Assembly: GCF_001306055.1 (NCBI RefSeq)
Contig: NZ_LGHJ01000008.1
Coordinates: 60,001-92,000 of the forward strand
Length of the DNA: 32,000 nucleotides
Source of the DNA: Bellilinea caldifistulae
GTDB lineage: Bacteria > Chloroflexota > Anaerolineae > Anaerolineales > Anaerolineaceae
Reading direction: 5' to 3'
The number at the start of each line of letters is the position of its first letter. Positions within the stretch are counted from its first letter, which is position 1. The translations under genes and the position numbers were made by a program. This document shows positions 12,990 to 29,508 of this stretch, piece by piece. Below the pieces are notes generated by a model. That model was not told where the DNA came from. It saw nothing but the letters and a program-made list of their open reading frames with translations, and searched no databases.

Positions 12990-13019
12990 CCAAACTCAAA
13001 GAAAGGAGGTGAACAAGTC

Positions 13020-13166: not shown

Positions 13167-13173
13167 ACAACCT

Positions 13174-13210: not shown

Positions 13211-13238
13211 GCCTTACTTGATTATCAGGAGGTCGAAA

Positions 13239-14080: not shown

Positions 14081-14227
14081 ATTCCTTATTGCTCTCTGTT
14101 TATAATCTTCGGACAAGAGAACGACTGAATAGGGGCACAAAGCTTGGCTGTGGTTAGAAATAGGGAAGAGAACACCTGGGGTCGCTTCTGGCGAAACTTG
14201 CCGTTAGTGGTGGAGCAGCTACACAAT

Positions 14228-14947
14228 TCAATCACCCGTTCGCCACGAGCTCACGTGATCGTTCAAAGCATAGAAACTGGAGCAATTCGGTCCACAGGAA
14301 TATGTCGGTCCGGTGTAATTGGTGAAGTCGAAAACCTCGAGCACGTTGCACCCTGAGTACGAACTACCTGAAGCAAATTTGTTATCCAGATTGCTAGGGA
14401 GTGATGTCTTCCCGTAACTGATCGAGGTTGAACAACCAGAAGGACCGTAATACTCTACCAGGAGAGATCCATAGTTCGTGTTATCGTAGAATTTAGCAAT
14501 CAGGTAGCTTGAGTCAAGCGAGATACCATTGATCGAATCAATCGGGCCGCTGGAGCAAACCGGTTCCGATTCCTTAGATTCTTGTTCGCCAGGTTGGATC
14601 GGCTCAAGGAAGAACACACAGCGGTACACTGATTCCTGGGACGGGCCAAAGACCACTTCGCTCTTTTCAGTTGGCTCGTATGGCATTATTTCCCAGCCTT
14701 CATCTCCTGGTTTGATGGGCTCGAGGAATTCAACCTGCGCTTCTGTGATGGGCTCACATCTCTGGTCACTGGTCGTCGAGCTCGAATCTCCTGTCTGGAT
14801 CGGCTCGAGGTTGACAACCTGAGCATAGCCAGGGGGACATTCCAGCTCTGCTCCGATGTTCTCAGCAGAGGCCCTATGGATCGCATATGCCATCAGGCCG
14901 CCCGCCAGGACGAGAATCCCAATAGCTAACAGTATTTTTCGCAGCAT
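14228..14947 (-). CDS. secreted protein with three LEPIxPG repeats and C-terminal beta/gamma-crystallin-like Greek-key motifs
   Basis: GGAGGTG lies upstream and the signal peptide is MLRKILLAIGILVLAGGLMAYA. The repeats are NLEPIQTGD, FLEPIKPGDE and FLEPIQPGEQ. Two motifs (FYDNTNYGS...; FDFTNYTGPTY...LNDHVSSWR) resemble Greek-key signatures. Confidence 0.6.
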   Translation of the reverse strand: MLRKILLAIGILVLAGGLMAYAIHRASAENIGAELECPPGYAQVVNLEPIQTGDSSSTTSDQRCEPITEAQVEFLEPIKPGDEGWEIMPYEPTEKSEVVFGPSQESVYRCVFFLEPIQPGEQESKESEPVCSSGPIDSINGISLDSSYLIAKFYDNTNYGSLLVEYYGPSGCSTSISYGKTSLPSNLDNKFASGSSYSGCNVLEVFDFTNYTGPTYSCGPNCSSFYALNDHVSSWRTGD

Positions 14948-15031
14948 ATTTGCACCTCCTGAAATAGATTTGATTTAGCTGCTCCACCGATTTCAGGATA
15001 GCAAATTAGGTGTCAAGTCTTTGTTAAGTGT

Positions 15032-16258
15032 TTATGAATTGGGGAAATCGCCCTTATCTGCGGGCAGCCAGATCGTAAAGATGCTGCCCACACCCGGTGT
15101 ACTTGTTACCTCAATATGACCGCGGTGTAACTGTATAATATGAGCTGCGATGGATAAGCCCAGTCCAGCTCCCCCCTTGTGCTGGTCACGTGATTTGTCC
15201 ACCCGGTAGAATCGCTCGAAAATGTGAGGAAGTTCTTCTGAAGGAATTCCGATTCCCGTATCTGAAACTCTGATCAGGATCCATCCTTCCCGTCGTTGGA
15301 CGGCGACCTTAACAGAACCACCAGAATGATTATAGCGGATTCCATTCTCTATCAGATTGCTTATTGCTCTAACCAGTAGAGGCCCGTTGGCCAGAAGCGT
15401 CTCTTCATGCACTGACTCTAGGTGTAAAGTCACCCCGCAGCTTTGCGCCAGAAGGCGGTTTTCTTCCAGGGTCTCCTCTATCAAGACACCCAGGTCGACG
15501 GGTTCCAGCCGCAACTCTTTTTCCCCACTGGTCAGCAAGAGGAGATCCTCCACCAATCTTTCCAATCTTGTTAAGGCTCGATCCTGGACGGCAGCGGCCT
15601 GTCGGTAGTCGGCCAGAGAAGCCTCAGAATCCTGTTGGAGCACTTCTAGGTTCATGCGCAGAGTTGCCAGTGGGGTGCGCAATTCGTGGGCTGCATCGGC
15701 CACAAATTGACTTTGTTGTTCGAAAGCCCGTTCCAGGCGCGCCAGCATGTCATCGAAAGCATCAGCCAGTTCTTTCACCTCATCTTGCGGCCCATCCAGG
15801 GAGAGCCGCCGATGAAGCGTGTCGGCTCGGATTTGTCGAACCAAGTCGCCAAGATTATGCACTGGGTGTAATGCTTGAAGGGTGATCCAATAAGCGCCCA
15901 AGGCTCCCAGCAGGGTGAAAATTCCTACCCCGATCAGTGAGATGATGCGCACTTCCCGGATGGCGATCTCCTGGACCTGTTCGGCAACCGGCGCTACCTC
16001 TGCAAATGGCACGAGCGTTTGAGTTTCTGAAGGAGCTGGCGAAGAGCGCGTGGGTACCAATTCAAAGGACTGCTCAGTCGGCGCCAGCAGCTCGACGCTA
16101 ACCGCCCGAGGCAACCTGGCGGCCGTCAGGCTGTTGATAAGCACGATCAGCCCCAGGCCCATCGCAAACAACAAACCGGCCGTCCAGAGCGTCAATCTCC
16201 GGTGCAGCGTAAAGGACCTGGCAAGAGTATGCCGTGTATTTCCTAAAAACACCCTCAT
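15032..16258 (-). CDS. sensor histidine kinase (TM-HAMP-HisKA-HATPase)
   Basis: The H-box is AAHELRTPLATL, the N-box is NLIENGIRYN, and G-boxes are DTGIGI and GGAGLGLSIA. It has a 4-nt overlap with the regulator gene. Confidence 0.9.
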   Translation of the reverse strand: MRVFLGNTRHTLARSFTLHRRLTLWTAGLLFAMGLGLIVLINSLTAARLPRAVSVELLAPTEQSFELVPTRSSPAPSETQTLVPFAEVAPVAEQVQEIAIREVRIISLIGVGIFTLLGALGAYWITLQALHPVHNLGDLVRQIRADTLHRRLSLDGPQDEVKELADAFDDMLARLERAFEQQSQFVADAAHELRTPLATLRMNLEVLQQDSEASLADYRQAAAVQDRALTRLERLVEDLLLLTSGEKELRLEPVDLGVLIEETLEENRLLAQSCGVTLHLESVHEETLLANGPLLVRAISNLIENGIRYNHSGGSVKVAVQRREGWILIRVSDTGIGIPSEELPHIFERFYRVDKSRDQHKGGAGLGLSIAAHIIQLHRGHIEVTSTPGVGSIFTIWLPADKGDFPNS

Positions 16259-16944
16259 GACAGATCCTCTTCTGGTACAAGGAGGCGATAACCCTGTCCG
16301 GTTACTGTTTCGATGAAGCGCGGCTTTTTAGCTGTATCTCCAAGTTTACGGCGCAGCGAATGGATGTGAGTCCGTACACTGGCGGTGAACAGGTTTACGT
16401 CCTCACTCCATACGTGCTCGATCAATTCCTCCTGGCTGACGACCTTGCCGGGATTGCGCATCAAATATTCCAGAATAGCCAGTTCCTTGCGAGTGAGCTC
16501 TAAACGTCGCTTCCCTTGCCAGGCTGTTCGGCTGGCTGGGTCTAATTTCAATTCACCAGCGCGTAAAATTGGTTCCCGCACCCGCAGATCACGCCTCATC
16601 AATGCCCGGATGCGGGCTACCAATTCTTCAAAATGGAAAGGCTTGATTAAATAATCATCCGCGCCCAGGTCTAAACCGGCCACTTTATCTTCAAGCCGGC
16701 TGCGAGCTGTCAACATCAAAATAAGTAGCTGTGGCTGTTTGGTGCGCAGTTGGCGGCAGATATCGAGTCCATCCATGCCAGGCAAATTGAGATCCAGGAT
16801 CAACAAGTCGTACTCATTGACCTCCGCCAGCTCCAGGCCCTGCTCGCCATCCGCGGCAAGATCCACCGCATAGCCAAGTTTTCGCAGGCCACGCGCCAGT
16901 GCATTTGCAAAGTCGACTTCATCTTCGATAATCAGGAGTTTCAT
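16255..16944 (-). CDS. OmpR/PhoB-family response regulator
   Basis: The receiver is MKLLIIEDE...DLLILDLNLPGMDG...LTAR, followed by a winged-helix C-terminus (LTRKELAILEYL...GQGYRL). Confidence 0.95.
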   Translation of the reverse strand: MKLLIIEDEVDFANALARGLRKLGYAVDLAADGEQGLELAEVNEYDLLILDLNLPGMDGLDICRQLRTKQPQLLILMLTARSRLEDKVAGLDLGADDYLIKPFHFEELVARIRALMRRDLRVREPILRAGELKLDPASRTAWQGKRRLELTRKELAILEYLMRNPGKVVSQEELIEHVWSEDVNLFTASVRTHIHSLRRKLGDTAKKPRFIETVTGQGYRLLVPEEDLS

Positions 16945-16955
16945 TGCTCAAATGG

Positions 16956-16964
16956 ATTATAGCA
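16956..16964 (-). promoter_or_regulatory. extended -10 (TGCTATAAT) for the regulator-kinase operon, very short leader
   Basis: On the - strand, TGCTATAAT ends 11 nt before ATG 16944. There is no Shine-Dalgarno in between, and the -35 is poor. Confidence 0.35.
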
Positions 16965-17134
16965 GCAATCAAACTACCGGTTGTGCATGCCTGCCACACC
17001 CCTTCACATGACCTTGCAATCATCATAACGGGCCAGGGGTTAAATTTCTGTTAAGCTTTGATGTGAAAGTGGAAAGGGTTTTGAGATGAGGAATCAACTC
17101 TTTCGAGAAATGGAACGGAAAAATTAGGCAGAAC

Positions 17135-17365
17135 GGAGACCCGACGCCCATCTGGACCAACGCCCAGGCCTTTGCCAGCATGAATAATAGTTACATGGCG
17201 CAATACGGTGTGCATGCCGTAGTGACAGGTATTATGGTAGATGCTAGTGAGGATACGGTGCTGGTGCAGGTGTCCGCAAATTTAGAGAGGTTGTTTCCAA
17301 GCGTGGTGCTGGAGGTGGTTGTTACCGAAAACGGATTTGCTAAAATAAGAGCATTTACCAGATAG
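17135..17365 (+). pseudogene. orphan diverged copy of the tadG 3' end
   Basis: It translates as ..NGDPTPIWTNAQAFASMNNSYMAQYGVHAVVTGIMVDASEDTVLVQVSANLERLFPSVVLEVVVTENGFAKIRAFTR, against residues GDLQPTSKTWANAQAFASMNNGYLAQYGVNAVV...RAFTH of 13631..14080. It has no N-terminal domain and no RBS. Weaker similarity may reach back to about 17075. Confidence 0.65.
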
Positions 17366-17408
17366 GTGATCAGGATAAAATATCATAATGAAACTTTAGT
17401 AAATACTA

Positions 17409-17438
17409 TTGACAAACTATGTAAACTAATGCTATAAT
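17409..17438 (+). promoter_or_regulatory. sigma70-type promoter (TTGACA-N18-TGcTATAAT)
   Basis: TTGACA lies at 17409-17414 and TATAAT at 17433-17438, preceded by TG (extended -10). It sits in an AT-rich gap about 100 nt upstream of the first gene of the + strand module. Confidence 0.55.
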
Positions 17439-17472
17439 CTCAGCAATCGAATAATTCAGTCACATACACGTT

Positions 17473-17517
17473 GGCCGGGACACTCCTGCTGGAGATACGT
17501 TCCGGCCGTTTTTGTTT
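17473..17517 (+). terminator. terminator-like hairpin plus U tract inside the 5' leader (attenuator or short RNA)
   Basis: GGCCGG at 17473-17478 pairs with CCGGCC at 17502-17507, with further inner pairs. GTTTTTGTTT follows at 17508-17517. The element lies between the promoter and the RBS (AGGAGG) of ATG 17539. Confidence 0.45.
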
Positions 17518-17538
17518 AACCACTTTTAGGAGGCTACC

Positions 17539-17931
17539 ATGATCAACGAAGTCGTTCTCGAAGGGATTGTCGTCAAGACCTGGAAGTATGCCGAAGACCT
17601 GCTCTTCCGCATTGCCTGCTACCGCGATCCGGATCTGCCTTCCAAGTCGCTGAACGATGTACCGGATGCGGCTGATTTCGTCACCATCCGCGTACTCAAG
17701 GGCAACCTGGGCGCGCCAGTGGTAGTCGAGAAAGGTTACCACGTGCGGGTGCACGGTTTCTTGCAGAGCCGGGATTACGAAGAGAGCCTGGCGGACTTCC
17801 TGAAGGATGCCCGTGGGGCGGAGCTGCCGGTTCCGGAAAACCTGGATCCGAATGAGTTGCGCGCTCCGCGCGGTACGACCGAAGTCATTGCCCGGCGCAT
17901 CATGAGCCAGCGCAACGGATCGAAAAGGTGA
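17539..17931 (+). CDS. OB-fold ssDNA-binding-like protein without acidic tail
   Basis: AGGAGG lies upstream. NEVVLEGIVVK...FRIACYR...DFVTIRV...GYHVRVHGFLQSRDYEE resembles the SSB/PriB beta-barrel pattern. The assignment is by pattern only. Confidence 0.5.
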   Translation: MINEVVLEGIVVKTWKYAEDLLFRIACYRDPDLPSKSLNDVPDAADFVTIRVLKGNLGAPVVVEKGYHVRVHGFLQSRDYEESLADFLKDARGAELPVPENLDPNELRAPRGTTEVIARRIMSQRNGSKR

Positions 17932-18508
17932 CTCGTTTGACTGAATAGCCGTTTTCTACTGACGGCGATTCGCAATCATTCGCTTTATCCATCAGGGGGA
18001 TATCGCAGAACAACCGAATAGTTCAGTTGATTATACGTAGGCCGGTGTGCTTCCCCCAGGAGGGTTGTACACCGGCCTTGCTGCTTTAAGAGCAGCCTGC
18101 ACCTTGAAAAACAGCCTCTTTGTGTAAACGTTCTGCCCTGGCAGGCGGTGGCCGCTGCCCCTTACTCCGGGGGCGGGTGTCATTCCCAGAACATGGGAGT
18201 GCCGTGAGAAGCGCTGGAAGTCGTCCGCAAAGGCCAGGCTCATAAGATGCCAAATACTGAATGTATTGGCTGCCCGGTTGGCATACCACCGGCCGGGCAG
18301 CCTCTAATGGAACAGAGCAGCAAACTTTGTCCGCTGAGCCTCCGCTTGGCAGTCAAGGTTTGCTGCCCTGACGTGCCCTGAAGTTATGGAAGGGAAACAA
18401 GGGACAGTAAAGCGTTAGTTGGTGCGCCATCATATCTGGCGCAGTAACGTCGGAAACCAATCCCCAAACGTTTTTCTTCTGACACGAAAGGAGCGTAATG
18501 CATAAACG

Positions 18509-19654
18509 ATGACTACCGCACCCCCCATCCTGGAAAACCAATTCCAACATGAGCGCATGGCCCGGGCACAGGCTGCTCTACAGAATGGCGACATGCAGGT
18601 GATGGTCTTGACCGACTTCGCCTGGATAGTTGCCAGCAAGCGCAGCCATTACACCGTCTCGCTAGATGGCGACGCCTGGACCTGCACCTGCCCGGATTTC
18701 ACCGGACGCTGTCAGCGTTTTGGCTTGCGCTGCAAGCACATCGAAGCGGTCCGTCTCATTGAGACTGAGAAGATCGCCGAATCCGGGCAGGTAAGCCAGT
18801 ACACGTATCCACAGTTCTCAACCACTCACACGGAGGAACAAATGACCCAATCTGTACCAACACACGATCCACCTACGCTCGACTCATCTAGCGAGCAGAT
18901 CCTTTGGCGGCTGCGACAACCGCTGGATATGAACCGCGTCAAGCGCCGCCAGGCTCCCGGGCAAGGAACAGTCCCTTACCTGGAAGGTTACGATGTGATC
19001 GAAACCGCCAACGACCTGTTTCTGTTCCACTGGTCGTTCGACCTGCTCAGCGAGCCGCACATCATGCGCTGGGACAAGGTGATCACCTTCTACGATCAGC
19101 GTTCCAGGAAGAAGGTGCCGGTTCTGGGCGAAGATGGCAAACCAACCACGGAGATCGCCGGCATCGCTTACATCACCGGCCGGATCACGGTCGAACTGGA
19201 CGGCAAAGCCTACAATCATGCCGATGCCGGGCGCTGCATCTTCACTGGCGATACGCCCGAAGCCCTGGATATGGCCATCGCCGGCGCGGTCACTGACTGC
19301 CTGAAACGCTGCTTCCGCCAGCTGGGCGAGCAGTTTGGCAATAGCCTGTATGACAAGGAGATCGCAAGGACTGCCGGGCTGGAGAACGGTTCTTCGAATG
19401 GTCACGGATCGAACGGCAACGGGCAATCCGAAAAATCGACCAGTCAATCGGCATCGCCTAACTCGCCAGTGGCATCCAATTCGCCCGCATCCCAGGCGGA
19501 GGCGCTGCAATACCGGGATGGCGTAGCGGTGGACACAAGCAACGCTGCGGAATTGGAGGCTTTCAATGCCTTCAAGTCCGCCCATCAGGAGCTGGCTCCC
19601 GCCTCGCGCGAAGTGTTGCGCGCCTGGGTCGCCAGCCGCAACGGTAAGAAGTAA
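18509..19654 (+). CDS. SWIM zinc finger fused to Rad52/22-family single-strand annealing protein
   Basis: The SWIM motif CxCx(n)CxH is WTCTCPDFTGRCQRFGLRCKHIEAV. The Rad52-like core is VKRRQAPGQGTVPYLEGYDVIETANDLFLFHWSFDL...CLKRCFRQLGEQFGNSLYD, followed by a Ser/Asn-rich tail. Confidence 0.8.
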   Translation: MTTAPPILENQFQHERMARAQAALQNGDMQVMVLTDFAWIVASKRSHYTVSLDGDAWTCTCPDFTGRCQRFGLRCKHIEAVRLIETEKIAESGQVSQYTYPQFSTTHTEEQMTQSVPTHDPPTLDSSSEQILWRLRQPLDMNRVKRRQAPGQGTVPYLEGYDVIETANDLFLFHWSFDLLSEPHIMRWDKVITFYDQRSRKKVPVLGEDGKPTTEIAGIAYITGRITVELDGKAYNHADAGRCIFTGDTPEALDMAIAGAVTDCLKRCFRQLGEQFGNSLYDKEIARTAGLENGSSNGHGSNGNGQSEKSTSQSASPNSPVASNSPASQAEALQYRDGVAVDTSNAAELEAFNAFKSAHQELAPASREVLRAWVASRNGKK

Positions 19655-19684
19655 TCCCATATTTGAGAGACGGAGGAAAATCCC

Positions 19685-20104
19685 ATGTCATTCCAAACGA
19701 TCATCATCACCGGTCATCTCGGCCGCGACCCGGAGATGCGCTACACCCCTGCCGGGCAGGCTGTGACTAACTTCAACCTGGCTGCCAATAGGCAGTACAC
19801 TGACTCGAGCGGCCAGGTGGTGAAGGAAACCACCTGGTTCCGGGTTTCTGCCTGGGGCAAGACTGCGGAAAACTGTAACCAGTACCTGCACAAAGGCAGC
19901 CTGGTGCTGGTGGAAGGCCGGCTGGTGTGCGACCCGGAGACGGGCGGACCACGGCTCTATACCCGCCAGGATGGCTCGCCCGCCTCATCCTTCGAAGTGA
20001 GCGCCAGTACGGTGCGCTTCCTGTCGGGGCGTGAAGGGGAAAGCGAACCCGAACCTGCCGGGAATGGCTCGGCTGCACCCCAGCACGATGCCATTCCGTT
20101 CTGA
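19685..20104 (+). CDS. ssb: single-stranded DNA-binding protein
   Basis: The OB fold is IIITGHLGRDPEMRYTPAGQAVTNFNLAANR...WFRVSAWGKTAENCNQYLHKGSLVLVEGRL, followed by a Gly/Glu-rich linker and a terminal DAIPF tip. Confidence 0.95.
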   Translation: MSFQTIIITGHLGRDPEMRYTPAGQAVTNFNLAANRQYTDSSGQVVKETTWFRVSAWGKTAENCNQYLHKGSLVLVEGRLVCDPETGGPRLYTRQDGSPASSFEVSASTVRFLSGREGESEPEPAGNGSAAPQHDAIPF

Positions 20105-20168
20105 TCCACACGAGATTGCCCTGGGTACGCCTGGGGCAATCTTCTGAATTCCCCACACGGAGGCAAAC

Positions 20169-20516
20169 ATGATCAAGAAGATTTACCGCGGCGAACCGGG
20201 CGGGTTAGTGAAAGTGATCCTGCCATCCGGCAAGTCGCGGCCCTTGCGACACGTGGTGCTGCATAGCCCAACCGGTTTCGGTTGGGGTTATGGCGGCTCT
20301 GGACCGGCAGACCTGGCACTGAGCATCTTGTGCGACGTACTGGGCGAGCGACCGTCTGAGAAGCAGGTCTACCACGGACGGTTCAAAGCCTACCCACACC
20401 ACCAGGATTTTAAGCGTGAGTTTGTCGCCCGATGGGAGTATGGCAGCGGGTTCGAGATCGCCCCGGATACCATCGCCGGTTGGCTGCGCAAGCGAGGCGT
20501 GGAGGTGCAGCCATGA
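20169..20516 (+). CDS. conserved hypothetical (HSPTGFGWGYGGSGPADLA motif)
   Basis: ACGGAGG precedes the ATG. I recall this motif from a phage/plasmid-borne family of unknown function, but I do not assert a family name. Confidence 0.6.
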   Translation: MIKKIYRGEPGGLVKVILPSGKSRPLRHVVLHSPTGFGWGYGGSGPADLALSILCDVLGERPSEKQVYHGRFKAYPHHQDFKREFVARWEYGSGFEIAPDTIAGWLRKRGVEVQP

Positions 20517-20806
20517 CCGATGAGTACATCCTTGTACTGAGCGAAGCGAACGTATCTGATGACGGTCCCGGCTCCGACCTGTTCGATCCCTACGAGACCG
20601 GCTGGTGGAAATCTGTCTCCAGCGATGAATCTGCACCTGCAGATCAGCCATGCCCGAATTGCAATGGCGAAGGTTACGTTGTCGTCCGGGTCTATCCCTG
20701 GGACGGCTGTTCGTATGATGAAGAGCCATGCAAGTTCTGTAATCCGAGGAAGGATTACACAGAGCTGGATGACGAGTTCCTAGAGGATGTGGATATCCCC
20801 TTCTAA
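20513..20806 (+). CDS. acidic small zinc-ribbon protein with SSB-like C-terminal tip
   Basis: The start has an ATGA overlap with the upstream stop (the listed start 20432 is too long). It has CPNCNGEG (CxxCxGxG) plus CKFC, and ends ...DDEFLEDVDIPF. Confidence 0.6.
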   Translation: MTDEYILVLSEANVSDDGPGSDLFDPYETGWWKSVSSDESAPADQPCPNCNGEGYVVVRVYPWDGCSYDEEPCKFCNPRKDYTELDDEFLEDVDIPF

Positions 20807-20858
20807 TCGCTTCTCACCGTTGGCATTTCAATTCCCACACGTCCTGGAGGTACACAGC

Positions 20859-21284
20859 ATGCAAGATATCCTGAACCAAAAGGCGGGGATCGATCTGGCA
20901 GACAGGCCCACCCGCATCCGTGTGATCGGGCACACCTACCTGGTCGATTTCGGTCCTTCGACCCAACCCCGTTTTCACACCGTCAACAAGCAGCGCAGCT
21001 GCTCATGTCAGTTGAAGGAAAACTGCCCGGCCATCGAGGCTGTGGCGGAGTACCTGCGCAACGGCGGGCAGCGCGCTCCCGACCCGATGCCGCCCTGCCC
21101 GATTTGCGGCGCGGAGATTGTCCGTGACCGCAAGTGGGATGGCAAGTACACCAAGGAGCTCGGCTGGCGCTGTACGGTAGGAGGTCTTCGACACTTCCTG
21201 GACGCCAAAGCCGAACGCATAAAAGAGGCGCTTCGCCGCAATCAAACAGCGGTCAGCGAACACGAAAGTGCAGCTGGCCGCTGA
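20859..21284 (+). CDS. hypothetical zinc-finger protein (degenerate SWIM-like plus zinc ribbon)
   Basis: GGAGG precedes ATG 20859 (MQDILNQ). CSCQLKENCPAIEAV parallels the SWIM of 18509..19654 but lacks the His. CPICG...WRC forms the ribbon. Confidence 0.6.
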   Translation: MQDILNQKAGIDLADRPTRIRVIGHTYLVDFGPSTQPRFHTVNKQRSCSCQLKENCPAIEAVAEYLRNGGQRAPDPMPPCPICGAEIVRDRKWDGKYTKELGWRCTVGGLRHFLDAKAERIKEALRRNQTAVSEHESAAGR

Positions 21285-21301
21285 TTTTTTAATTGGAGGA
21301 A

Positions 21302-21766
21302 ATGATGCAAGTACACACGTTAACCCACATGGAATTAGAACCCACGCCAGTGCAGATCGGCGAGCCGTTCCGCTGCTGGGAATGTGGTTCGCCTGACCAG
21401 GGCGGTATGTTCCTGATCATCGACCACTCCCCGCTGGAAGCCTACACCGATCATGTCTACTACATGCGCCTGGCCTGCGGACACAACCCGCGCTGTGTGC
21501 GCCTGGGCGATGCCATTGCCCCGCTGCGCCCGCTGGACCGCTCGATTGATGAGAACCTGGCGAGTGTGCGTGAAGGATTGGCGCACCTGGCCAAAGCCGT
21601 ACCGCCCGATCAGCAGAACCAGGAGCCGGTCTCCAAGATCGTCTACCTGCTGGTCGCCGGGCGCATCTCGCCCCAGACAGCGATCAACCAGCTGCGCGGC
21701 CTGGTACGTACGAACGAGCCGTTCCTGCCTGCCCGGCTGCCTGTCATCGAACAAACCTGGCGGTAA
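21302..21766 (+). CDS. hypothetical protein (Cys/His-containing)
   Basis: GGAGGA at 21295-21300 precedes ATG 21302/21305. It contains CWECG...ACGHNPRC. A hairpin terminator follows. Confidence 0.55.
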   Translation: MMQVHTLTHMELEPTPVQIGEPFRCWECGSPDQGGMFLIIDHSPLEAYTDHVYYMRLACGHNPRCVRLGDAIAPLRPLDRSIDENLASVREGLAHLAKAVPPDQQNQEPVSKIVYLLVAGRISPQTAINQLRGLVRTNEPFLPARLPVIEQTWR

Positions 21767-21788
21767 TACCGCTACAACCAATTCACAC

Positions 21789-21828
21789 GCCGCCCGCTCT
21801 GGAACCCTCCAGGGCGGGCGATTTCTTT
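21789..21828 (+). terminator. rho-independent terminator
   Basis: CGCCCGCTCTGGA (21791-21803) pairs with TCCAGGGCGGGCG (21808-21820), with one G-T pair, around an ACCC loop. ATTTCTTT follows. Confidence 0.6.
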
Positions 21829-21842
21829 ACACGGAGGAAAAC

Positions 21843-23009
21843 ATGTGCCAGTTGCTTTTACTGCCGGATAAGCCCGGCAACACGAAATACACCCCTAAGC
21901 ACAAGCTGCTCCCATTGCGGGAGCGCCCGGTCGAACGTGTCAGCGCTCGTGCGGATGCCTGCACGATCATAGAGCTGTTGGCTGCCTTGCTGGGCGGGCC
22001 GCAGCCAATTGAAACTGCCGATGCCCTGCTGGCGCACTTCAACGGCCGGCTATCTGACCTTCGCCGCGCGCCGGCGCACGAGATTGCTGATATCCCCGGC
22101 ATTGGGCAGCAGAATGCCGCCCGTATCAAAGCGGCGGTAGAGCTGGGGCTGCGCCTGACTCTCAATACTGAGGAAGATCGCCCAACCATCCACAGCCCAG
22201 CCGATGCGGCTGCTATGTTGCAGCACGAGATGAGCGCCCTGGAACAGGAGCACCTGCGCGTGATCCTGCTGGACACGCGCAACCGGGTGATCGACATCGT
22301 GGAGATCTACCAAGGCAGCCTGAACTCCGCTCAGGTGCGGGTGGCCGAGCTGTTCAAGCCCGCCATCCAGCGCATGTCGGCGGCGATCATCCTGGTGCAT
22401 AACCACCCCTCGGGTGACCCGACGCCCAGCCCGGACGATGTAGCTGTAACCCGCGCAGTTGTTCAAGCGGGCAAGCTCTTGGATATCGACACGCTGGATC
22501 ACCTGGTCATTGGTCGTGGGCGTTTCGTTTCGCTCAAAGAGCGTGGCCTGGGTTTTGACGGTCGCGTTTCTGAGACAAGACCTGGTTATCACCTGCGATC
22601 AGCCAGATATTCCATCCATGAAGATGACGATATGATTTACGCTTACACTCGCTCCCAGGCGTTAGAAGATGGCGTTCTTGTCGATGTCTCTGAAATGGCA
22701 TCGGAAGCCGGCTTTCGCTATCCAACCGCCATCACCGCCGACTTGCATGCCCGCATCACACCGAACGAGCGGGAGAAAGCGTTTGGTCAGAGCTATGAAG
22801 GCCGGCTGTGGGATGTGATATTTCTAGCGTCCTTCGCCGCTCGCCGATCAGATACACAAGATCGATGCAGCTTCGAGGTCGGTCTTTTCGAAGCTGACGA
22901 GGCTTTTCCACATCGCACCCACCGCTACACGCTCTCGTTATGGATGGTCGTCGGTCCTGGCGATCAGGGCGAGCCGGTTATCACGATCGGTTTTCCCGAG
23001 GATTTTTAG
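21843..23009 (+). CDS. radC: RadC-like JAB/MPN protein fused to a C-terminal domain of unknown function
   Basis: ACGGAGG precedes ATG 21843, and the listed ORF start 21453 overlaps the previous gene. It has an HhH region (IADIPGIGQQNAARI) and the JAMM motif HNHPSGDPTPSPDD. The RadC part ends near 22556 (KERGLGF), and about 150 further residues follow (MIYAYTRSQALEDGVLVDVSE...). Confidence 0.85.
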   Translation: MCQLLLLPDKPGNTKYTPKHKLLPLRERPVERVSARADACTIIELLAALLGGPQPIETADALLAHFNGRLSDLRRAPAHEIADIPGIGQQNAARIKAAVELGLRLTLNTEEDRPTIHSPADAAAMLQHEMSALEQEHLRVILLDTRNRVIDIVEIYQGSLNSAQVRVAELFKPAIQRMSAAIILVHNHPSGDPTPSPDDVAVTRAVVQAGKLLDIDTLDHLVIGRGRFVSLKERGLGFDGRVSETRPGYHLRSARYSIHEDDDMIYAYTRSQALEDGVLVDVSEMASEAGFRYPTAITADLHARITPNEREKAFGQSYEGRLWDVIFLASFAARRSDTQDRCSFEVGLFEADEAFPHRTHRYTLSLWMVVGPGDQGEPVITIGFPEDF

Positions 23010-23019
23010 GGAGGCGGCC

Positions 23020-24129
23020 ATGACTGGAAAAACTAACCCAGCCCTGCCTGCCCCCTTCGAGAACACCTACTTCCGGGAACGCGCCATCAAAGCTGCCAAC
23101 CGGCAAAAGCAGGGACACATCCTGGTTTCTGGTTCCAAACCGGACAACGGTCAAGGCTTGCCCTTGCCGTACATCCACGATGTTCCCGGCCTGCGGCGCG
23201 GCAGCTATCCCTACGACTACGAATGCGAATGGGGACGCTTCAAGTACGAATATGAATTGAGCGCCTATCTCTTCACACCCCACAACAGCCAGGTTCCACC
23301 CGGCTGGGAGCATTACGACCTGCTAACACCCATCCAGTCGGTGACTGCCATGATCGACCGGGCGCGTCGCCTGGCGACCATCAAGACCCCGGACCACGAG
23401 ATCGTCCTGCGGGATGTACCGGTGGGCGATAGCCCTTACAACCTGCTTCAGCAGGTCAACGCTGCCCTGGCGCAAAGCTGTCAGCCCTTCGTGGCCTGGC
23501 GGCTGGAGTGGGTCAGCGGCGAGGTTGACCAGCTGTGGCTGGAAGGCGTCCCGCAGGTCCGTAATGAACACTGCTCGGCCTATGTCACCGGCTACGCCCA
23601 TGATGAAGCCGGCAACCTGGTCTACCTGGGCATGGTCGGGCACAAAACGGTGCTGGAGTCGATCCGGGCCACCGTCCAGGCCCGCCAGCGCAAGAGGCTG
23701 TTCCTGCAAGGCCGGCCGGTTTACCCACTGCCCACCCACTACTGCCAGACCTGGCAGCACTTGCCAGACTATGGTGTTTACCACGCGACTCTGATCGCCG
23801 ATCCCGCCCTGCCGGGCAAGTGGCAGCCGGGGGAGGAGGTAATTTATTTACTCGTTTTCGAGGGTGAACTGCCGGATGGATCGTTGCCGGAAACTCAGGC
23901 TCGACGCGTTCTCGCTTCTCGCCTGTCAGAAACATTACCAATCCCGATTCTGGACGAATGGCATGAATCTCTCTGGGAGGCGAGGCAGCGGGAGAACCTG
24001 ATCGTTGGGCTGGAAACCGGCGGCGATTGTCAGGAAGGATACCTGGTGCAGTTGACCGAGACGATATGGAAGGAGGTGATTACCAGATTATTGATGGAAC
24101 GAAAGATTCGGATTTCCAGCGGTCAATGA
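23020..24129 (+). CDS. hypothetical protein (369 aa)
   Basis: GGGAGG lies upstream. It is co-directional and tightly spaced after radC. No motif recognised. Confidence 0.6.
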   Translation: MTGKTNPALPAPFENTYFRERAIKAANRQKQGHILVSGSKPDNGQGLPLPYIHDVPGLRRGSYPYDYECEWGRFKYEYELSAYLFTPHNSQVPPGWEHYDLLTPIQSVTAMIDRARRLATIKTPDHEIVLRDVPVGDSPYNLLQQVNAALAQSCQPFVAWRLEWVSGEVDQLWLEGVPQVRNEHCSAYVTGYAHDEAGNLVYLGMVGHKTVLESIRATVQARQRKRLFLQGRPVYPLPTHYCQTWQHLPDYGVYHATLIADPALPGKWQPGEEVIYLLVFEGELPDGSLPETQARRVLASRLSETLPIPILDEWHESLWEARQRENLIVGLETGGDCQEGYLVQLTETIWKEVITRLLMERKIRISSGQ

Positions 24130-24134
24130 TAAAA

Positions 24135-24177
24135 GCCATAACAGGAAGGGATCAACTGGTTCCCCTCCTGTTATGGC
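24135..24177 (-). terminator. strong hairpin, U tract on the - strand (end of ABC operon; may also stop + strand transcription)
   Basis: GCCATAACAGGA(A)GGG pairs with CCCTCCTGTTATGGC (about 15 bp). On the - strand it is followed by TTTTAT. Confidence 0.55.
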
Positions 24178-24301
24178 CTACTCGATTAGCTCAGATTTGG
24201 GACTTTAGTAAAAGGTCTCATCGCTCTTATGATCATTTGATCATTTTCCGGAAACAATTCGCGGTTAGGAAAGTAATGCAGACATTTCCCAAGGGGCAAG
24301 T

Positions 24302-25030
24302 TTAGAAACGAGCTGGCGAAATATGGATAGAGCTCAAGCGTCCATTCCCCATCACAAATTCTGCATCACAAAGTTCATCGATCTCCTCTCGGCTATGGCT
24401 GGTCAACAGGATTGTAACCCCATCAGCTCTCAGTTCTTTCAACAGTCGATGCACATCCTTTATCCCTTCCCGGTCCAAACCGTTTGTGGGTTCGTCAAGA
24501 AGTAAGAGCCTGGGGTTCTCCATGATTGCCTGGGCAATTCCAAGACGCTGGCGCATTCCGGTCGAATAAGTGCGCACCGGCTTGGGTTCGTACGGATCCA
24601 GTCCAACCAGACGTATCGTGTTTACAATATCTTCGCGGGAAATCCTGTTTCGTATCATTGCCAATAACTGCAAATTTCGGAAACCGCTGTAGTGTGGCAA
24701 AAAACCCGGTGTCTCGATCAGGACACCTGTTTCGCCAGGAAATTCCACGTCTTTCCCTATTTCCCTCCCAAATATCCAGACCCGCCCCCGAGTTGGATGT
24801 ACCAGCCCACAAATAACGCGTAATAACATGCTTTTCCCCGATCCATTTGGACCGCTAATGCCGTAAATCTTGCCAGGGGGGACGTTCAAGTTGATGCCAT
24901 CCAGGATGAGGCGATCTCCAATTTGTTTGGACACCCCTTCTATGGCAATGGCTAACTCTGCCTCCCGTGTGGGTTTCTCGATATTTTCAGACTCCATTTT
25001 TATCATTACTCCATCTTTCCTTCCTAACAT
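24302..25030 (-). CDS. ABC transporter ATP-binding protein
   Basis: Walker A is GPNGSGKS, the signature is YSTGMRQRL and Walker B is LLLLDEPTNGLD. The ATG overlaps the upstream TGA. Confidence 0.9.
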   Translation of the reverse strand: MLGRKDGVMIKMESENIEKPTREAELAIAIEGVSKQIGDRLILDGINLNVPPGKIYGISGPNGSGKSMLLRVICGLVHPTRGRVWIFGREIGKDVEFPGETGVLIETPGFLPHYSGFRNLQLLAMIRNRISREDIVNTIRLVGLDPYEPKPVRTYSTGMRQRLGIAQAIMENPRLLLLDEPTNGLDREGIKDVHRLLKELRADGVTILLTSHSREEIDELCDAEFVMGNGRLSSIHISPARF

Positions 25031-25890
25031 CAAGTCGCAGGGCCATAGATGTCCATTCGTCGCACGTACCAGGTGCCCACGCCGAACACAATTAGAAACA
25101 ATGTGATGTTATAGATGAGCGACCATTCCATTGAAAATCCGGGCACATTCGGATCAAAGAACGTGTGTCGTAACAGCATTGATTGAGATCCAGGTAGCCA
25201 ACGACTCAAATACGGGTTGTCGATTCCCAAAAGCCAGGAAATAATCGTCACAACCGAGATCGCGCTAAAGCCATAGAAAGAGCGTCTGCTGATAAGTGAT
25301 AAGGTCAACTGCATAGAAGCCAGCGCGTATAGAGTGCTACTGAACAAGATGAAAATCCACCCCAGAAGTGCACCAATTTCCATACCCATTGGCATAACCC
25401 ACATATCACCAGAAATCATCAGTTTGCTTGGTTGCCAGGACCAGGGCAATACGATTGATCCCCCGGCTAAGACTGCAAAAACAATCACCAATACATATCC
25501 GATCGCAAAGATCCATAAGGCAACTGCTTTTCCAAACCACCAGCGAAGTCGAGAACCAACCAATGGGACAACCGCATATCCCCTATACAGCAATTCGCCA
25601 ATGGCAATGTCACCGAACAGATAGAAGAAAAGGATATGGGATATTAGCCAGGGCAATGCCTGTAGCAAAGAATAACCCCAAACGCCCGGCCCGGAAAATG
25701 AAACGAAGAAGGCATCCCAAAGATTAACTGTCATTGCACCCTGGGAGGAACTTAACCGCTCGACAACTTGTATTGCACTGCGCCAACCTATGAATCCAAA
25801 GAGAACAAATACTCCGGCGAGGGAATGCCATCGCAGCGAAGTTCGCAGGTTCCAGCATATCGTGGTGAATAATGGAGCACTGCTCATCAT
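25030..25890 (-). CDS. ABC-associated polytopic membrane protein (paralogue of next gene)
   Basis: It has about six TM segments. NLWDAFFVSFSGPG...VGSRLRWWFGK parallels NSWDALFSVFGNGN...VGSRRRWWLSK in 25887..26747. The stop and start overlap by 4 nt. Confidence 0.7.
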   Translation of the reverse strand: MMSSAPLFTTICWNLRTSLRWHSLAGVFVLFGFIGWRSAIQVVERLSSSQGAMTVNLWDAFFVSFSGPGVWGYSLLQALPWLISHILFFYLFGDIAIGELLYRGYAVVPLVGSRLRWWFGKAVALWIFAIGYVLVIVFAVLAGGSIVLPWSWQPSKLMISGDMWVMPMGMEIGALLGWIFILFSSTLYALASMQLTLSLISRRSFYGFSAISVVTIISWLLGIDNPYLSRWLPGSQSMLLRHTFFDPNVPGFSMEWSLIYNITLFLIVFGVGTWYVRRMDIYGPAT

Positions 25891-26747
25891 TGCTCTCTAT
25901 GTATAAAATCTTGTTTGTGGGCAAACTTGAATCCAACGATCAGTAAAATGGAACACCATAAAACCCAGTAATATATTGAAGTCGGTAGTGATGGATACGG
26001 TGTTATTACGTCACCAAAAGAGTGGAGGTTAAATAACAGGTGTTGATGGATAGACAGGTAAGCATAAGGAAGGGGTAAGTTCGCCCTCAAAGCGACCAGC
26101 CCGCTAAAGTTAGCAATGACGCCGGCGGTAAACCCAACCAGATAGTGATTAGAAAGCAGGGTGAAGCACATGACCAACAGTCCCATGCTAAACCATCCAA
26201 GCGATAGTAGAAGAAGAAGCCATCGAATAGCAGATGTGGATGAAATGGTTAATGCTTCTGGATTAAGATTAAATTCCTGTGGATATTGTAGAACTGCTTG
26301 GCTCCAGGAATTATCCCAGGGAAGGACAAACGTGGCTGTCATTGCAACAATCCCAACGTTCAAACCAGTATAACAAAACACCGCTAATCCTAAAATCAGG
26401 ACTTTACTCAACCACCAACGTCTTCGCGAGCCCACGCGTAACAAGGCGAGTTGACCAATCCCCGACTCGAGAAACATGTCGCTGACCAGGTAGAGATAAA
26501 GCGGATTAAGCACAAAAAATATCAGATTGCCATTGCCGAAAACGCTAAATAAGGCATCCCATGAATTGCTGCTCAACCCGTAATTTCTGGCACGAACCAG
26601 CACCCCCCCAATAACAATATACGAAATAAACAGAATTGTAGGGATCGGCAATAACCAGCGCATGCGCAGTAATTTTTGCTCGATTTGGAAGTACAGGTAG
26701 CGCACAGGGATTATCCTCTGTCGTTGCTTCTTTGTTAATTTTCTCAA
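25887..26747 (-). CDS. ABC-associated polytopic membrane protein
   Basis: It is a paralogue of 25030..25890 and has 4-nt overlaps on both sides. Confidence 0.7.
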   Translation of the reverse strand: MRKLTKKQRQRIIPVRYLYFQIEQKLLRMRWLLPIPTILFISYIVIGGVLVRARNYGLSSNSWDALFSVFGNGNLIFFVLNPLYLYLVSDMFLESGIGQLALLRVGSRRRWWLSKVLILGLAVFCYTGLNVGIVAMTATFVLPWDNSWSQAVLQYPQEFNLNPEALTISSTSAIRWLLLLLSLGWFSMGLLVMCFTLLSNHYLVGFTAGVIANFSGLVALRANLPLPYAYLSIHQHLLFNLHSFGDVITPYPSLPTSIYYWVLWCSILLIVGFKFAHKQDFIHREQ

Positions 26748-27547
26748 ATTCTACTTTTCACCTTGTGTGCCATAACGAAGTACAGCACGGTGCTGATGAG
26801 AAATACGCCTCCTAAATTGGTTAACACGTTCAGCCACGTAATATGATTCAACCAGTGGGGGACAAAAGCTGAAACAGGCGACCAGGCCGGTATCCCTAGA
26901 ATCGCCAAACCGTAATGGACTATATTGTAAAGGACGAAAGGCGTTGCCAGGACGATGTAGCGATTGTCCGTGAGCGCAGAAAGCGATAATCCAAAAATCG
27001 CGTAAGTTGCCCCAAACAAAAAACTTAATGCGATCAGGGACAAGATATATAGATCAGGCGCTGATTTGTACAAAGCGCCAAACGGTCCGAGAGCCTCCGG
27101 CATAGATAGTACACGCTGCTCAAACGGATCTGGATTTAAACCTCTGGGTAGAACAAGATTCGTGAAGGCAAAGTATAACAGCATCGGTAAAGACACGGCC
27201 AGGCCGCCGGATAAGAAAGAGATCGCGTATTTCGCCGAGAGGTAGCAGCGATAGGTAGTCCTGCTCAGAACGAGACGTAAATAGCCCAACCCGCGATCGT
27301 GAGCGAATGAGTCTGCGAAAGGTAAAACCGCAATGAGAGGGACAATGAGTCCGATGAGCCCCTTTTGGGCCCAGATCACGGCATCATAGGCATTGTTGTA
27401 AAAAGGAGGCAGTCTGGCAAGATACTCAGGGTCTGAAGGGCCCGACATGTAATCTACATAACCATAGGCCAGGGCGAGAAGTCCTAAAACGACTGCAAAA
27501 AAGAAAGAACGGCTGAGAAAGGCTCGGTTTATCTCTTCACGTAGCAT
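26744..27547 (-). CDS. ABC-2-type permease-like membrane protein
   Basis: It is the first gene of a four-gene translationally coupled operon. It has six hydrophobic spans with a long first external loop. Confidence 0.7.
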   Translation of the reverse strand: MLREEINRAFLSRSFFFAVVLGLLALAYGYVDYMSGPSDPEYLARLPPFYNNAYDAVIWAQKGLIGLIVPLIAVLPFADSFAHDRGLGYLRLVLSRTTYRCYLSAKYAISFLSGGLAVSLPMLLYFAFTNLVLPRGLNPDPFEQRVLSMPEALGPFGALYKSAPDLYILSLIALSFLFGATYAIFGLSLSALTDNRYIVLATPFVLYNIVHYGLAILGIPAWSPVSAFVPHWLNHITWLNVLTNLGGVFLISTVLYFVMAHKVKSRI

Positions 27548-27597
27548 GGCATTTTGTCATTTATTCACAGTTTTGGCTCGACCATTAATTATACGGG

Positions 27598-27638
27598 CAA
27601 CTGCGCGGACGGAGGGAATCGCACTGTCCGCGCAGTTG
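27598..27638 (-). terminator. perfect 13-bp hairpin between secreted-protein gene and ABC operon
   Basis: CAACTGCGCGGAC (27598-27610) pairs with GTCCGCGCAGTTG (27626-27638) around a 15-nt loop. There is no clear U tract. Confidence 0.4.
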
Positions 27639-27665
27639 AGGTGCGTCTCGGGTTAGTGAAGTATT

Positions 27666-29505: not shown

Positions 29506-29508
29506 TGG

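What the first reader, a model, noticed from the sequence alone, without database searches (positions are those of the whole stretch)
20513..20806. Acidic DnaJ-type zinc-ribbon protein ending in DVDIPF: possible mimic of the SSB C-terminal tip
The canonical SSB encoded one ORF upstream ends ...HDAIPF. This 97-aa, strongly acidic protein ends ...DDEFLEDVDIPF. That is the acidic-plus-IPF signature through which bacterial SSBs dock partners such as RecQ, ExoI, PriA and Ung. A non-OB-fold protein carrying this tip could compete with SSB for host partners, acting as a decoy. It could also recruit them to the CxxCxGxG zinc module. Either would be an interesting entry or anti-host function.
Basis: inference. 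Interest (0 to 1): 0.65.

Follow-up and report, generated by a model that had tools for sequence, protein, structure and literature searches.

The report
Zinc-ribbon protein with SSB-like tail
A small, very acidic zinc-binding protein in a mobile-element DNA-recombination operon of Anaerolineae bacteria ends in the same four residues (D-I-P-F) that bacterial single-strand-DNA-binding proteins use to dock their partners, and that ending is kept by selection in its close relatives but not in the whole family, so partner mimicry is plausible but unproven.

Summary
Window 20513-20806 (+) encodes a 97-aa protein with pI 4.05 and 24 D/E against 5 K/R. It has one CxxCxGxG plus one CxxC half-site and ends in DVDIPF. 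A genuine SSB, two genes upstream, ends in HDAIPF.

The gene sits in a strictly syntenic operon found in about 35 Anaerolineae loci: unknown 130-aa protein, structured 577-nt gap, Rad52/SWIM annealase, SSB, DUF6166, this protein, two unknowns, RadC-JAB+DUF6573. The operon lies inside a larger island with variable cargo slots.

The family is tiny: 9 representatives below E 1e-10 among 1.84 billion proteins. Its 35-aa zinc-ribbon core is nearly invariant, while the tail is swapped often.

- 23 of 82 unique sequences end in [DE]-[IF]-P-[FY].
- Half end in an aromatic residue, against 8% of background ORFs.
- 92% of tails are acidic.
- In 12 loci the DIPF codons show only synonymous change, while the linker shows 22 non-synonymous changes.
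- Codon choice differs from that of the SSB tip, so the tip is not a recent copy.
- The SSB tip stays DIPF even where this protein's tail is DFEFDY, ..ED or EVIPSP, so the two do not co-vary.

Verdict: a real, selected C-terminal motif in one clade. SSB-tip mimicry is the best hypothesis, at about 0.35, and it is untested.

The parts
20513..20806 (+). Gene for the 97-aa acidic zinc-ribbon protein (stop included)
   Evidence: 62 homologues. The start is shared with homologues. GGAGG lies at 20501-20505. The ATG overlaps the upstream stop (ATGA).
20531..20554 (+). 24-nt (8-aa, LVLSEANV) insertion polymorphism in the N-terminal region. It is absent from most homologues and tandemly duplicated in L023/P0002.
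20642..20746 (+). Zinc-ribbon core, residues 44-78 (DQPCPNCNGEGYVVVRVYPWDGCSYDEEPCKFCNP). C47, C50, C73, C76, G52, G54, Y61, P62, W63 and G65 are invariant. C66 is nearly invariant.
   Evidence: (mostly synonymous change)
20747..20791 (+). Acidic linker of the tail, residues 79-93 (RKDYTELDDEFLEDV). It evolves fast and is predicted to be coil.
   Evidence: 22 non-synonymous and 13 synonymous variants across codons 33-47 of the core-to-stop alignment; pLDDT below 50
20792..20803 (+). C-terminal tip D-I-P-F, identical to the last four residues of bacterial SSB tails
   Evidence: 4 synonymous, 0 non-synonymous; no background ORF with this ending; codons differ from the SSB tip
19685..20104 (+). 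Element-encoded SSB (139 aa) ending in HDAIPF. The tip is DIPF in 27 of 30 related loci.
20169..20516 (+). DUF6166 protein (115 aa). It is translationally coupled to the zinc-ribbon gene and precedes it in nearly every locus that carries the operon.
18509..19654 (+). SWIM zinc finger plus Rad52/Rad22-type single-strand annealing protein
20859..21284 (+). Cys-rich 141-aa protein of unknown function, the next gene. It is fused in frame to the zinc-ribbon protein in L028/L035 and to the zinc-ribbon protein's N-terminal region in P0061/P0062.
   Evidence: GGAGG precedes ATG 20859.
17409..17438 (+). Perfect sigma-70 consensus TTGACA-18-TATAAT (with TG) ahead of the first gene of the operon

Best explanation
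This is a small accessory protein of a single-strand-DNA recombination or establishment operon carried by an integrated mobile island of Anaerolineae.

Anatomy. A variable N-terminal segment is followed by an almost invariant 35-residue, four-Cys zinc ribbon, which is the folded partner-binding unit. A disordered acidic tail follows, ending in hydrophobic-acidic-hydrophobic-x-aromatic-COOH.

Proposed mechanism. In this window and its close relatives that ending has become D-I-P-F, the tip through which bacterial SSBs plug into their partners. The tip most likely docks in the same tip-binding pockets. Those pockets could be on host SSB-interacting enzymes or on the element's own Rad52-type annealase. 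The protein would then either compete with SSB for those partners or tether the zinc ribbon and whatever it holds to them. The likeliest cargo is its fused or coupled neighbours, DUF6166 and the 20859 protein.

Shown:
- The gene is real and under purifying selection.
- The tip is selectively kept in one clade.
- The tip is not a recent copy of the SSB tail.
- The operon context is conserved.

Inferred:
- Any binding.
- The identity of the partner.
- Whether the effect is as a decoy or as an adaptor.
For: Sequence identity:
- The tip matches the SSB-Ct consensus D-D-D-I-P-F, quoted in the abstract of PMC5872125 (listed). It sits at the free C-terminus after an acidic, low-confidence (coil) linker.

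Selection and independence:
- Change at the four tip codons is synonymous only, against 22 non-synonymous variants in the linker.
- Conservative I/F and F/Y swaps occur in more distant members that have a different linker.
- The IP[FY] ending occurs on both the 21-aa and the 11-aa tail forms.
- Codon usage differs from the SSB tip.
- No background ORF carries this ending.

Context:
- The gene sits in a fixed operon with an SSB and a Rad52-type annealase.
- Phage annealases are known to work through the SSB tail. Abstracts seen support this: PMC6393309 (Red-beta C-terminal domain and E. coli SSB), PMC5928155 (Sak4 and its cognate SSB) and PMC13490951 (SSB-Ct used to find RecET systems).

Precedent:
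- T7 gp2.5 has an acidic tail ending in an essential Phe that contacts the polymerase (PMC12339929). From my own knowledge, the T7 gp4 helicase tail is likewise acidic with a terminal Phe.
Against: - Only 23 of 82 unique members carry the tip. 14 of 30 loci with both genes have it, while the SSB tip is constant. If the target were the universal SSB-tip pocket, loss or replacement of the tip would be unexpected.
- The tail is a recombination and insertion hot spot. DNA alignments break right after the CNP codons, and 1-1.8 kb inserts follow in five loci. Some tails may therefore be accidents.
- The closest out-of-family relative, P0063, has the core but no such tail.
- The sample for the codon test is small and phylogenetically related (12 loci, p about 0.03).
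- There is no structural model (pLDDT 50-55) and no experimental data.
- The host's own SSB tail was not examined.
Confidence: 0.35

Rival explanations
1. The tail is a family-specific C-terminal docking motif (hydrophobic-acidic-hydrophobic-x-aromatic) for a partner encoded in the same operon. Candidates are the 20859 Cys-rich protein, DUF6166 or RadC-DUF6573.
For: - 30 of 82 unique tails fit hyd-[DE]-hyd-x-[FYW]-COOH, against 3 of 3091 background ORFs. 12 more carry the motif internally.
- The 11-aa tails (NPxxDDFEFDY, NPSIEEDEIPY) and the last 11 residues of the 21-aa tail align position by position.
- The protein is fused in frame to the 20859 protein in L028/L035.
- It is translationally coupled to DUF6166.
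- The SSB tip does not co-vary with it.
Against: - An exact D-I-P-F with Pro at -1 is a very specific state, and it is kept by selection.
- Outside this family DUF6166 is not followed by a gene of this size or position. The small proteins in those loci were not compared with the zinc-ribbon protein.
- The operon neighbours are nearly identical across loci while the tails differ.
Confidence: 0.27
2. Only the zinc ribbon is functional. The tail is an evolutionarily labile, largely neutral acidic appendage created by frequent recombination and insertion at the 3' end. DIPF persists in one clade through shared recent ancestry.
For: - DNA homology breaks right after the CNP codons in many loci.
- There are at least 10 different tail endings.
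- Inserts sit immediately downstream.
- The core-only relative P0063 exists.
- The exhaustive search shows a young, narrow family.
Against: - 92% of tails are net acidic and 50% end in F, Y or W, against 8.4% of background ORFs. Neutral junk would not show this.
- Tip codons show only synonymous change while the adjacent linker changes freely.
Confidence: 0.18
3. The acidic tail acts on single-strand-binding proteins themselves. Like the SSB, gp2.5 or gp32 tails that fold back on their own OB-fold DNA-binding groove, it binds the basic groove of the element or host SSB in trans and tunes ssDNA binding or hand-over to the annealase.
For: - The protein is strongly acidic, at -19.5 net, and lies in an operon with an SSB and an annealase.
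- The gp2.5 tail is known to regulate ssDNA binding (titles and abstracts of PMC10359462 and PMC2553585).
Against: There is no direct evidence. General acidity would suffice for this role, so it does not explain selection for the exact I-P-F ending.
Confidence: 0.1
4. It is a DNA-mimic anti-restriction or anti-nuclease protein (Ocr, ArdA or gp5.9 style) of an element's early region.
For: - It is small and very acidic.
- The island also carries a methyltransferase (NPPY) fused to an SNF2-type helicase (my reading of motifs in the translation, not a profile hit), RadC and cargo defence genes.
Against: - There is no match in Pfam, PHROGs, PADLOC or NCBIfam.
- A 35-residue zinc ribbon with disordered flanks is too small to imitate a stretch of duplex DNA.
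- Far-clade N-termini are basic.
Confidence: 0.07

Closest known systems
C-terminal tip of bacterial SSB (SSB-Ct, ...D-D-D-I-P-F)
   Same: The last four residues, D-I-P-F, are identical and sit at the free C-terminus. Acidic residues and a flexible linker precede them. The element's own SSB two genes upstream carries the same tip.
   Different: The carrier is a 35-residue zinc ribbon with no OB fold (no Pfam SSB hit). The linker is 15 acidic residues rather than a long Gly/Pro/Gln-rich one. The tip is kept in only part of the family.
Acidic C-terminal tails of phage T7 gp2.5 (SSB) and gp4 (helicase-primase)
   Same: A replication protein that is not an SSB (gp4) carries an acidic tail ending in Phe like that of the phage SSB. 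Both dock on the same basic patches of the polymerase. This is a precedent for sharing a tail between an SSB and a non-SSB protein (gp2.5: PMC12339929; gp4: own knowledge).
   Different: There is no sequence relationship. The T7 tails end in D-x-D-F, not I-P-F. The T7 proteins are large enzymes, not a 97-aa zinc ribbon.
Anti-TRAP (RtpA) of Bacillus, a 53-aa DnaJ-like zinc-ribbon protein that inhibits TRAP by binding it
   Same: It is a small stand-alone protein built on CxxCxGxG zinc-binding motifs and acts purely through protein-protein binding. It is the top PDB profile hit, though not a significant one (3lcz, E 0.05).
   Different: The match covers the CxxCxGxG motif only. Anti-TRAP has two such motifs, no YPWDGCSYDE segment and no acidic tail. 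Its biology is unrelated.
DnaJ cysteine-rich (CR) zinc-finger domain, PF00684
   Same: It shares the CxxCxGxG motif followed by a beta-hairpin. More distant small relatives (P0070, P0071, P0073, P0079) have two full CxxCxGxG motifs, like one DnaJ zinc centre.
   Different: The score is below the Pfam cut-off (19.4 against 32.7 bits). Only one full motif is present, and there is no J domain and no C-terminal DnaJ domains.

Membership tests
DnaJ CR-type zinc finger (PF00684) | Profile match at or above the Pfam gathering score | tested here: not met
   19.4 bits against a 32.7 cut-off, E 0.0013. PDB 1exk DnaJ scores E 0.17.
DnaJ CR-type zinc finger (PF00684) | Paired CxxCxGxG motifs forming each zinc centre | tested here: not met
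   One full motif (C47-G54). The second half-site is CKFCNP, without GxG.
DnaJ/Hsp40 chaperone | J domain | tested here: not met
   No J-domain hit in Pfam or NCBIfam.
Bacterial SSB (PF00436 / TIGR00621) | OB-fold ssDNA-binding domain | tested here: not met
   The 97-aa protein has no SSB hit, while the neighbour at 19685-20104 scores 1.6e-29 and 116.9 bits.
SSB-Ct type C-terminal short linear motif | Terminal Phe with a free carboxylate, preceded by Pro and a hydrophobic residue | tested here: met
   ...D-V-D-I-P-F followed by a stop. The same holds in 23 of 82 unique homologues.
SSB-Ct type C-terminal short linear motif | Acidic residues directly upstream, on a flexible segment | tested here: met
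   8 D/E in the last 21 residues. pLDDT is below 50 and no secondary structure is predicted. The models are low in confidence overall.
SSB-Ct type C-terminal short linear motif | Conservation of the tip relative to the linker | tested here: inconclusive
   Met within the nearest clade, with 0 non-synonymous tip variants against 22 in the linker. Not met across the family.
SSB-Ct type C-terminal short linear motif | Binding to the hydrophobic pocket and basic ridge of SSB-interacting proteins | not testable with these tools
   This needs binding assays or multimer structure prediction.
Anti-TRAP (RtpA) | Significant sequence or fold similarity | tested here: inconclusive
   Profile against PDB gives E 0.05, covering the CxxCxGxG motif only. 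No confident model was available for a fold search.
Known anti-phage defence or phage protein families | Profile match in PADLOC or PHROGs | tested here: not met
   No hits.

The most novel reading that the evidence does not exclude
A mobile element encodes a natural SSB-tip mimic on a scaffold that is not an SSB. The zinc ribbon's D-I-P-F tail would occupy the SSB-tail pockets of host genome-maintenance enzymes. It would work either as a decoy that blunts host processing of incoming single-stranded DNA, or as an adaptor that brings those enzymes to the element's annealase complex. The other tail classes (DFEFDY, ELDF and so on) would be retargeted versions of the same device.
Probability: 0.25. 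Interest if true: 0.7.

Novelty: new variant of a known kind. Interest (0 to 1): 0.45.

Why it matters
The SSB C-terminal tip is the hub through which more than a dozen replication, repair and recombination enzymes find single-stranded DNA, and it is a drug target. In the five literature searches made here, every natural carrier of the tip that turned up was an OB-fold SSB or an SSB-like protein, including phage-encoded ones (for example bioRxiv 10.64898/2026.04.29.721553).

A free-standing, non-DNA-binding carrier encoded by a mobile element would be a natural competitor or adaptor for that hub. It would show how elements manipulate host ssDNA processing at entry or during recombination. It would also be a ready-made genetic tool: E. 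coli enzymes recognise DIPF, so tail-dependent toxicity or recombineering effects could be tested directly.

The caveats are substantial. The family is confined to one bacterial class. The tip is present in only part of the family. Everything about binding is inferred.

Tried and rejected
- AlphaFold2, full length with 44 sequences, gave pLDDT 50.5. Core plus tail with 49 sequences gave pLDDT 55.3. Both are too poor for a fold search, so none was run.
- Co-variation between the zinc-ribbon tail and the neighbouring SSB tail: there is none, because the SSB tip is constant.
- Recent copy or gene conversion from the SSB tail: rejected on codon usage.
- The apparent double frameshift in P0010/L046, which restores DIPF, was considered as evidence of selection. 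It was discounted because the SSB gene on that contig is also frameshifted, which points to assembly errors.
- Obligate DUF6166 plus zinc-ribbon pairing outside this family: not found in four distant DUF6166 loci, which are phage-like arrays of small ORFs, judged from the gene tables.
- PHROGs, PADLOC and NCBIfam gave no hit for the protein. Rfam gave no family in the window.
- The viral contig scan gave one weak fragment only, so there is no evidence that this is a phage gene.
- Literature searches for a described SSB-tip mimic that is not an SSB found none. They returned small-molecule or peptide mimetics and OB-fold SSB-like phage proteins.
- PDB sequence searches of three neighbours (o17539, DUF6573 domain, o23020) found nothing useful.

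Full report
**1. Observation**

Window 20513-20806 (+) is an ORF of 97 codons plus TAA. GGAGG lies at 20501-20505, 7 nt upstream of the ATG. The ATG overlaps the TGA of the preceding gene (ATGA), and homologues begin at the same Met.

The protein has 24 D/E against 5 K/R, pI 4.05 and net charge about -19.5. Residues 47-54, C-P-N-C-N-G-E-G, match CxxCxGxG. Residues 73-78 are C-K-F-C-N-P, a plain CxxC. The last six residues are D-V-D-I-P-F.

The SSB at 19685-20104 is genuine (Pfam 1.6e-29; TIGR00621 116.9 bits against a 53.95 cut-off) and ends in H-D-A-I-P-F. It lies two genes upstream, not one, because a DUF6166 gene (20169-20516) sits between.

I tested chance with the 3127 stop-terminated six-frame ORFs of at least 60 aa in the window and 45 related loci. 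All 47 that end in [DE][ILVMF]P[FY] are either the SSB or this protein.

**2. Family**

A word-indexed search of 5.8 billion proteins found 62 relatives. All are metagenomic or from Anaerolineae MAGs, and none is named or assigned to a family. An exhaustive profile search of 1.84 billion cluster representatives found only 9 with E below 1e-10, so the family is very narrow.

The alignment has three parts:
- a variable N-terminal part;
- an almost invariant core, DQPCPxCNGEGYIVVRVYPWDGCSYDEKPCDLCNP, with four invariant Cys plus a nearly invariant fifth;
- a variable tail.

Weak, more distant small proteins carry two full CxxCxGxG motifs around a short hairpin (P0070, P0071, P0073, P0079). This supports a single DnaJ-CR-like zinc centre as the fold class.

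Membership of the DnaJ family fails, however. Pfam scores 19.4 bits against a 32.7 cut-off. The best PDB profile hits are not significant: anti-TRAP 3lcz at E 0.05 and DnaJ 1exk at E 0.17, both over the motif only. Two AlphaFold2 runs gave pLDDT 50-55, with a hairpin between the Cys pairs and a coil tail. I did not run a fold search on models that poor. PHROGs, PADLOC and NCBIfam have no match.

**3. Context**

The window is part of a 3.70-Mb scaffold of NCBI assembly GCA_001050215.2. Related loci come from Levilinea, Leptolinea, Bellilinea and other Anaerolineae MAGs.

In about 35 loci the gene lies in the same co-directional array. In order, the array is:
- a 130-aa unknown protein (17539-17931);
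- a 577-nt non-coding gap;
- a SWIM plus Rad52/Rad22 annealase (18509-19654);
- the SSB;
- DUF6166;
- the zinc-ribbon protein;
- a Cys-rich 141-aa protein (20859-21284);
- a 157-aa unknown protein;
- RadC-JAB fused to DUF6573;
- a 369-aa unknown protein.

A perfect TTGACA-18-TATAAT promoter lies at 17409-17438.

blastn shows that the array (17150-24180), a Tad-pilus cluster (10057-14099) and a gene starting near 30550 are conserved among genera at 75-91% DNA identity. In L003 that last gene encodes a 1160-aa protein carrying an NPPY methyltransferase motif and a DExH/SNF2-like helicase motif (my reading of the translation; I did not run a profile search on it). By contrast, 14100-17150 and 24180-30550 are variable cargo slots. 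Here they hold a two-component system and an ABC transporter, and in L046 the first slot holds CBASS.

This pattern points to a horizontally moving island. I did not identify a relaxase, a T4SS, an integrase or phage structural genes. 'Leading region' therefore remains an analogy to what is described for plasmids (PMC11541004), which does not mention these families.

The closest relative outside the family, P0063, has the same YPWDG.SYDEKPC core. It sits in an unrelated, GC-poor array of small same-strand ORFs with two SSBs, and it has no SSB-like tail. The zinc-ribbon core is therefore older than the tip, and again it keeps company with SSB genes.

**4. The tail**

Among 82 unique sequences:
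- 23 end in [DE]-[IF]-P-[FY], as DIPF, EIPF, DFPF, DFPY or EIPY;
- about 16 end in D-F-[DE]-F-[DE]-Y or similar;
- 3 end in E-[IL]-D-F;
- 12 carry DFDFDD followed by SGGxNAR;
- about 8 end in ..ED;
- 5 end in EVIPSP-like sequences;
- the rest are truncated or odd.

Half end in F, Y or W, against 8.4% of background ORFs. 30 fit hydrophobic-[DE]-hydrophobic-x-[FYW]-COOH, against 3 of 3091 background ORFs. 92% of tails are net acidic, with a mean charge of -3.75.

The 11-residue tails and the last 11 residues of the 21-residue tail align position by position: NP-S-I-E-E-D-E-I-P-Y, NP-N-N-D-D-F-E-F-D-Y, ...S-L-E-E-M-D-I-P-F. The family therefore has one ancestral acidic-aromatic C-terminal motif, and D-I-P-F is one of its states.

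Within 12 loci that have the 21-residue tail, the four tip codons show only synonymous variants: GAT/GAC, ATC/ATT, CCC/CCT, TTC/TTT. The 15 linker codons show 13 synonymous and 22 non-synonymous variants. A hand-computed one-sided Fisher test gives about 0.03. The sequences are related, so this is suggestive rather than strong.

The zinc-ribbon tip uses GAT ATC CCC/T TTC TAA/TAG. The SSB tip uses GAC ATT CCG TTC TGA. The tip is therefore not a recent copy of the SSB tail.

Three findings weigh against strict mimicry:
- The SSB tip is DIPF in 27 of 30 loci, while the zinc-ribbon tail is tip-like in 14, otherwise aromatic in 9 and different in 7.
- DNA homology between loci often stops just after the CNP codons. 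In five loci inserts of roughly 1-1.8 kb follow the gene: a 279-284-aa reverse-strand gene in L022/L029, an ECF sigma/anti-sigma pair in L006, and L021/L031 inferred from alignment gaps only.
- In L028/L035 the protein reads through into the next gene, and in P0061/P0062 its N-terminal part is fused to that gene.

**5. Mechanism**

I commit, at about 0.35, to the following reading.

The zinc ribbon is the folded binding unit. The disordered acidic tail presents a C-terminal anchor. In the window's clade that anchor is an SSB-tip look-alike, and it docks in SSB-tip pockets. Those pockets may be on host SSB-interacting enzymes or on the element's Rad52-type annealase. Annealase-SSB-tail dependence is documented for phage systems (abstracts of PMC6393309, PMC5928155 and PMC13490951). 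The result would be either competition with SSB or tethering of the ribbon's own partner.

Shown are the gene's reality, the conservation pattern, selection on the tip, the tip's independence from the SSB gene, and the operon context. All binding is inferred.

The rivals are:
- a family-specific docking motif for an operon partner, with DIPF as a coincidental state (0.27);
- a largely neutral, recombination-generated tail (0.18);
- trans-regulation of the OB-fold groove by the acidic tail (0.10);
- DNA mimicry (0.07).

**6. Comparison with known systems**

The tail works like an SSB-Ct motif, and the sequence-level features of that motif are met in this window. The protein is not an SSB, because it has no OB fold. 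It is not a DnaJ, because it scores below the cut-off, has one motif and has no J domain.

The nearest functional precedents are two. One is the shared acidic, Phe-terminated tails of T7 gp2.5 and gp4 (gp2.5: PMC12339929; gp4 from my own knowledge). The other is anti-TRAP, a free-standing DnaJ-motif zinc ribbon that acts by protein binding.

The literature searches turned up SSB-tip peptides and small molecules, and OB-fold SSB-like phage proteins carrying FDDDIPF. They turned up no carrier that is not an SSB.

**7. Verdict**

The finding is real, non-random and partly conserved. The family is narrow and the tip is clade-specific. I rate novelty as a new variant of a known kind: the SSB-Ct motif on a new scaffold. 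Interest is 0.45.

Noticed in passing
window 17932-18508 (+): This is a 577-nt non-coding gap between the first operon gene and the annealase gene. It is conserved at DNA level across about 25 loci. As a single strand it folds far better than shuffles do (z = -4.9, several long near-perfect hairpins). Rfam has no family for it. It could be an ncRNA, a single-strand initiation or promoter element, or an origin of transfer.
   Followed up: partly
window 17409-17438 (+): A perfect sigma-70 consensus promoter (TTGACA, 18 nt, TG-TATAAT, 12 of 12 matches) lies about 100 nt ahead of the first gene of the recombination operon.
   Followed up: no
window 13865-14075 and 17150-17360 (+): This is a direct repeat of about 200 bp at about 80% identity. 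It consists of the 3' end of the Tad/TadE-like gene and a truncated second copy. The two copies bracket a variable cargo slot, which holds a two-component system here and CBASS SMODS+SAVED in L046.
   Followed up: partly
window 20531-20554; L023 7879-8208: A 24-nt in-frame insertion (LVLSEANV) sits after codon 6 of the zinc-ribbon gene. It is absent from most homologues and present twice in tandem in L023/P0002.
   Followed up: no
just after window 20746; L022 1152-2300, L029 6357-7500, L006 10241-11965: The position right after the zinc-ribbon core is an insertion and recombination hot spot. Inserts of about 1.2-1.8 kb were seen there. L022 and L029 carry a 279-284-aa reverse-strand gene, and L006 carries an ECF sigma/anti-sigma pair. 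The tail changes with each insert.
   Followed up: partly
L028 5496-6320, L035 1-663; P0061, P0062: Two kinds of in-frame fusion occur. The whole zinc-ribbon protein, or only its N-terminal 25 residues, is fused to the downstream Cys-rich protein (homologue of window 20859-21284). This hints that the two act together.
   Followed up: no
window ~30550-32000 (+); L003 15665-19147: A conserved 1160-aa protein combines an NPPY N6-adenine-methyltransferase-like N-terminus with a DExH/SNF2-type helicase-like region. That reading comes from motifs in the translation, not from a profile search. The gene sits at what looks like the right end of the island, and unrelated genes follow it in L003.
   Followed up: no
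window 21900-23009 (+): RadC-like JAB domain is fused to DUF6573. The fusion ends in an invariant ...ITIGFPEDF in nearly all loci, which is another acidic, Phe-terminated C-terminus in the same operon.
   Followed up: no
window 24000-31000: G+C drops from about 0.60 to 0.45-0.49 across a cargo block on the minus strand that holds an ABC transporter and a LuxR-type regulator. The block is absent from most related loci.
   Followed up: no
L053 3109-3468 and 9379-9759: An unrelated, GC-0.44 array of small ORFs carries the closest out-of-family zinc-ribbon relative. It encodes two SSBs with different tips (…VDEIPF and …EAVLEF).
   Followed up: no
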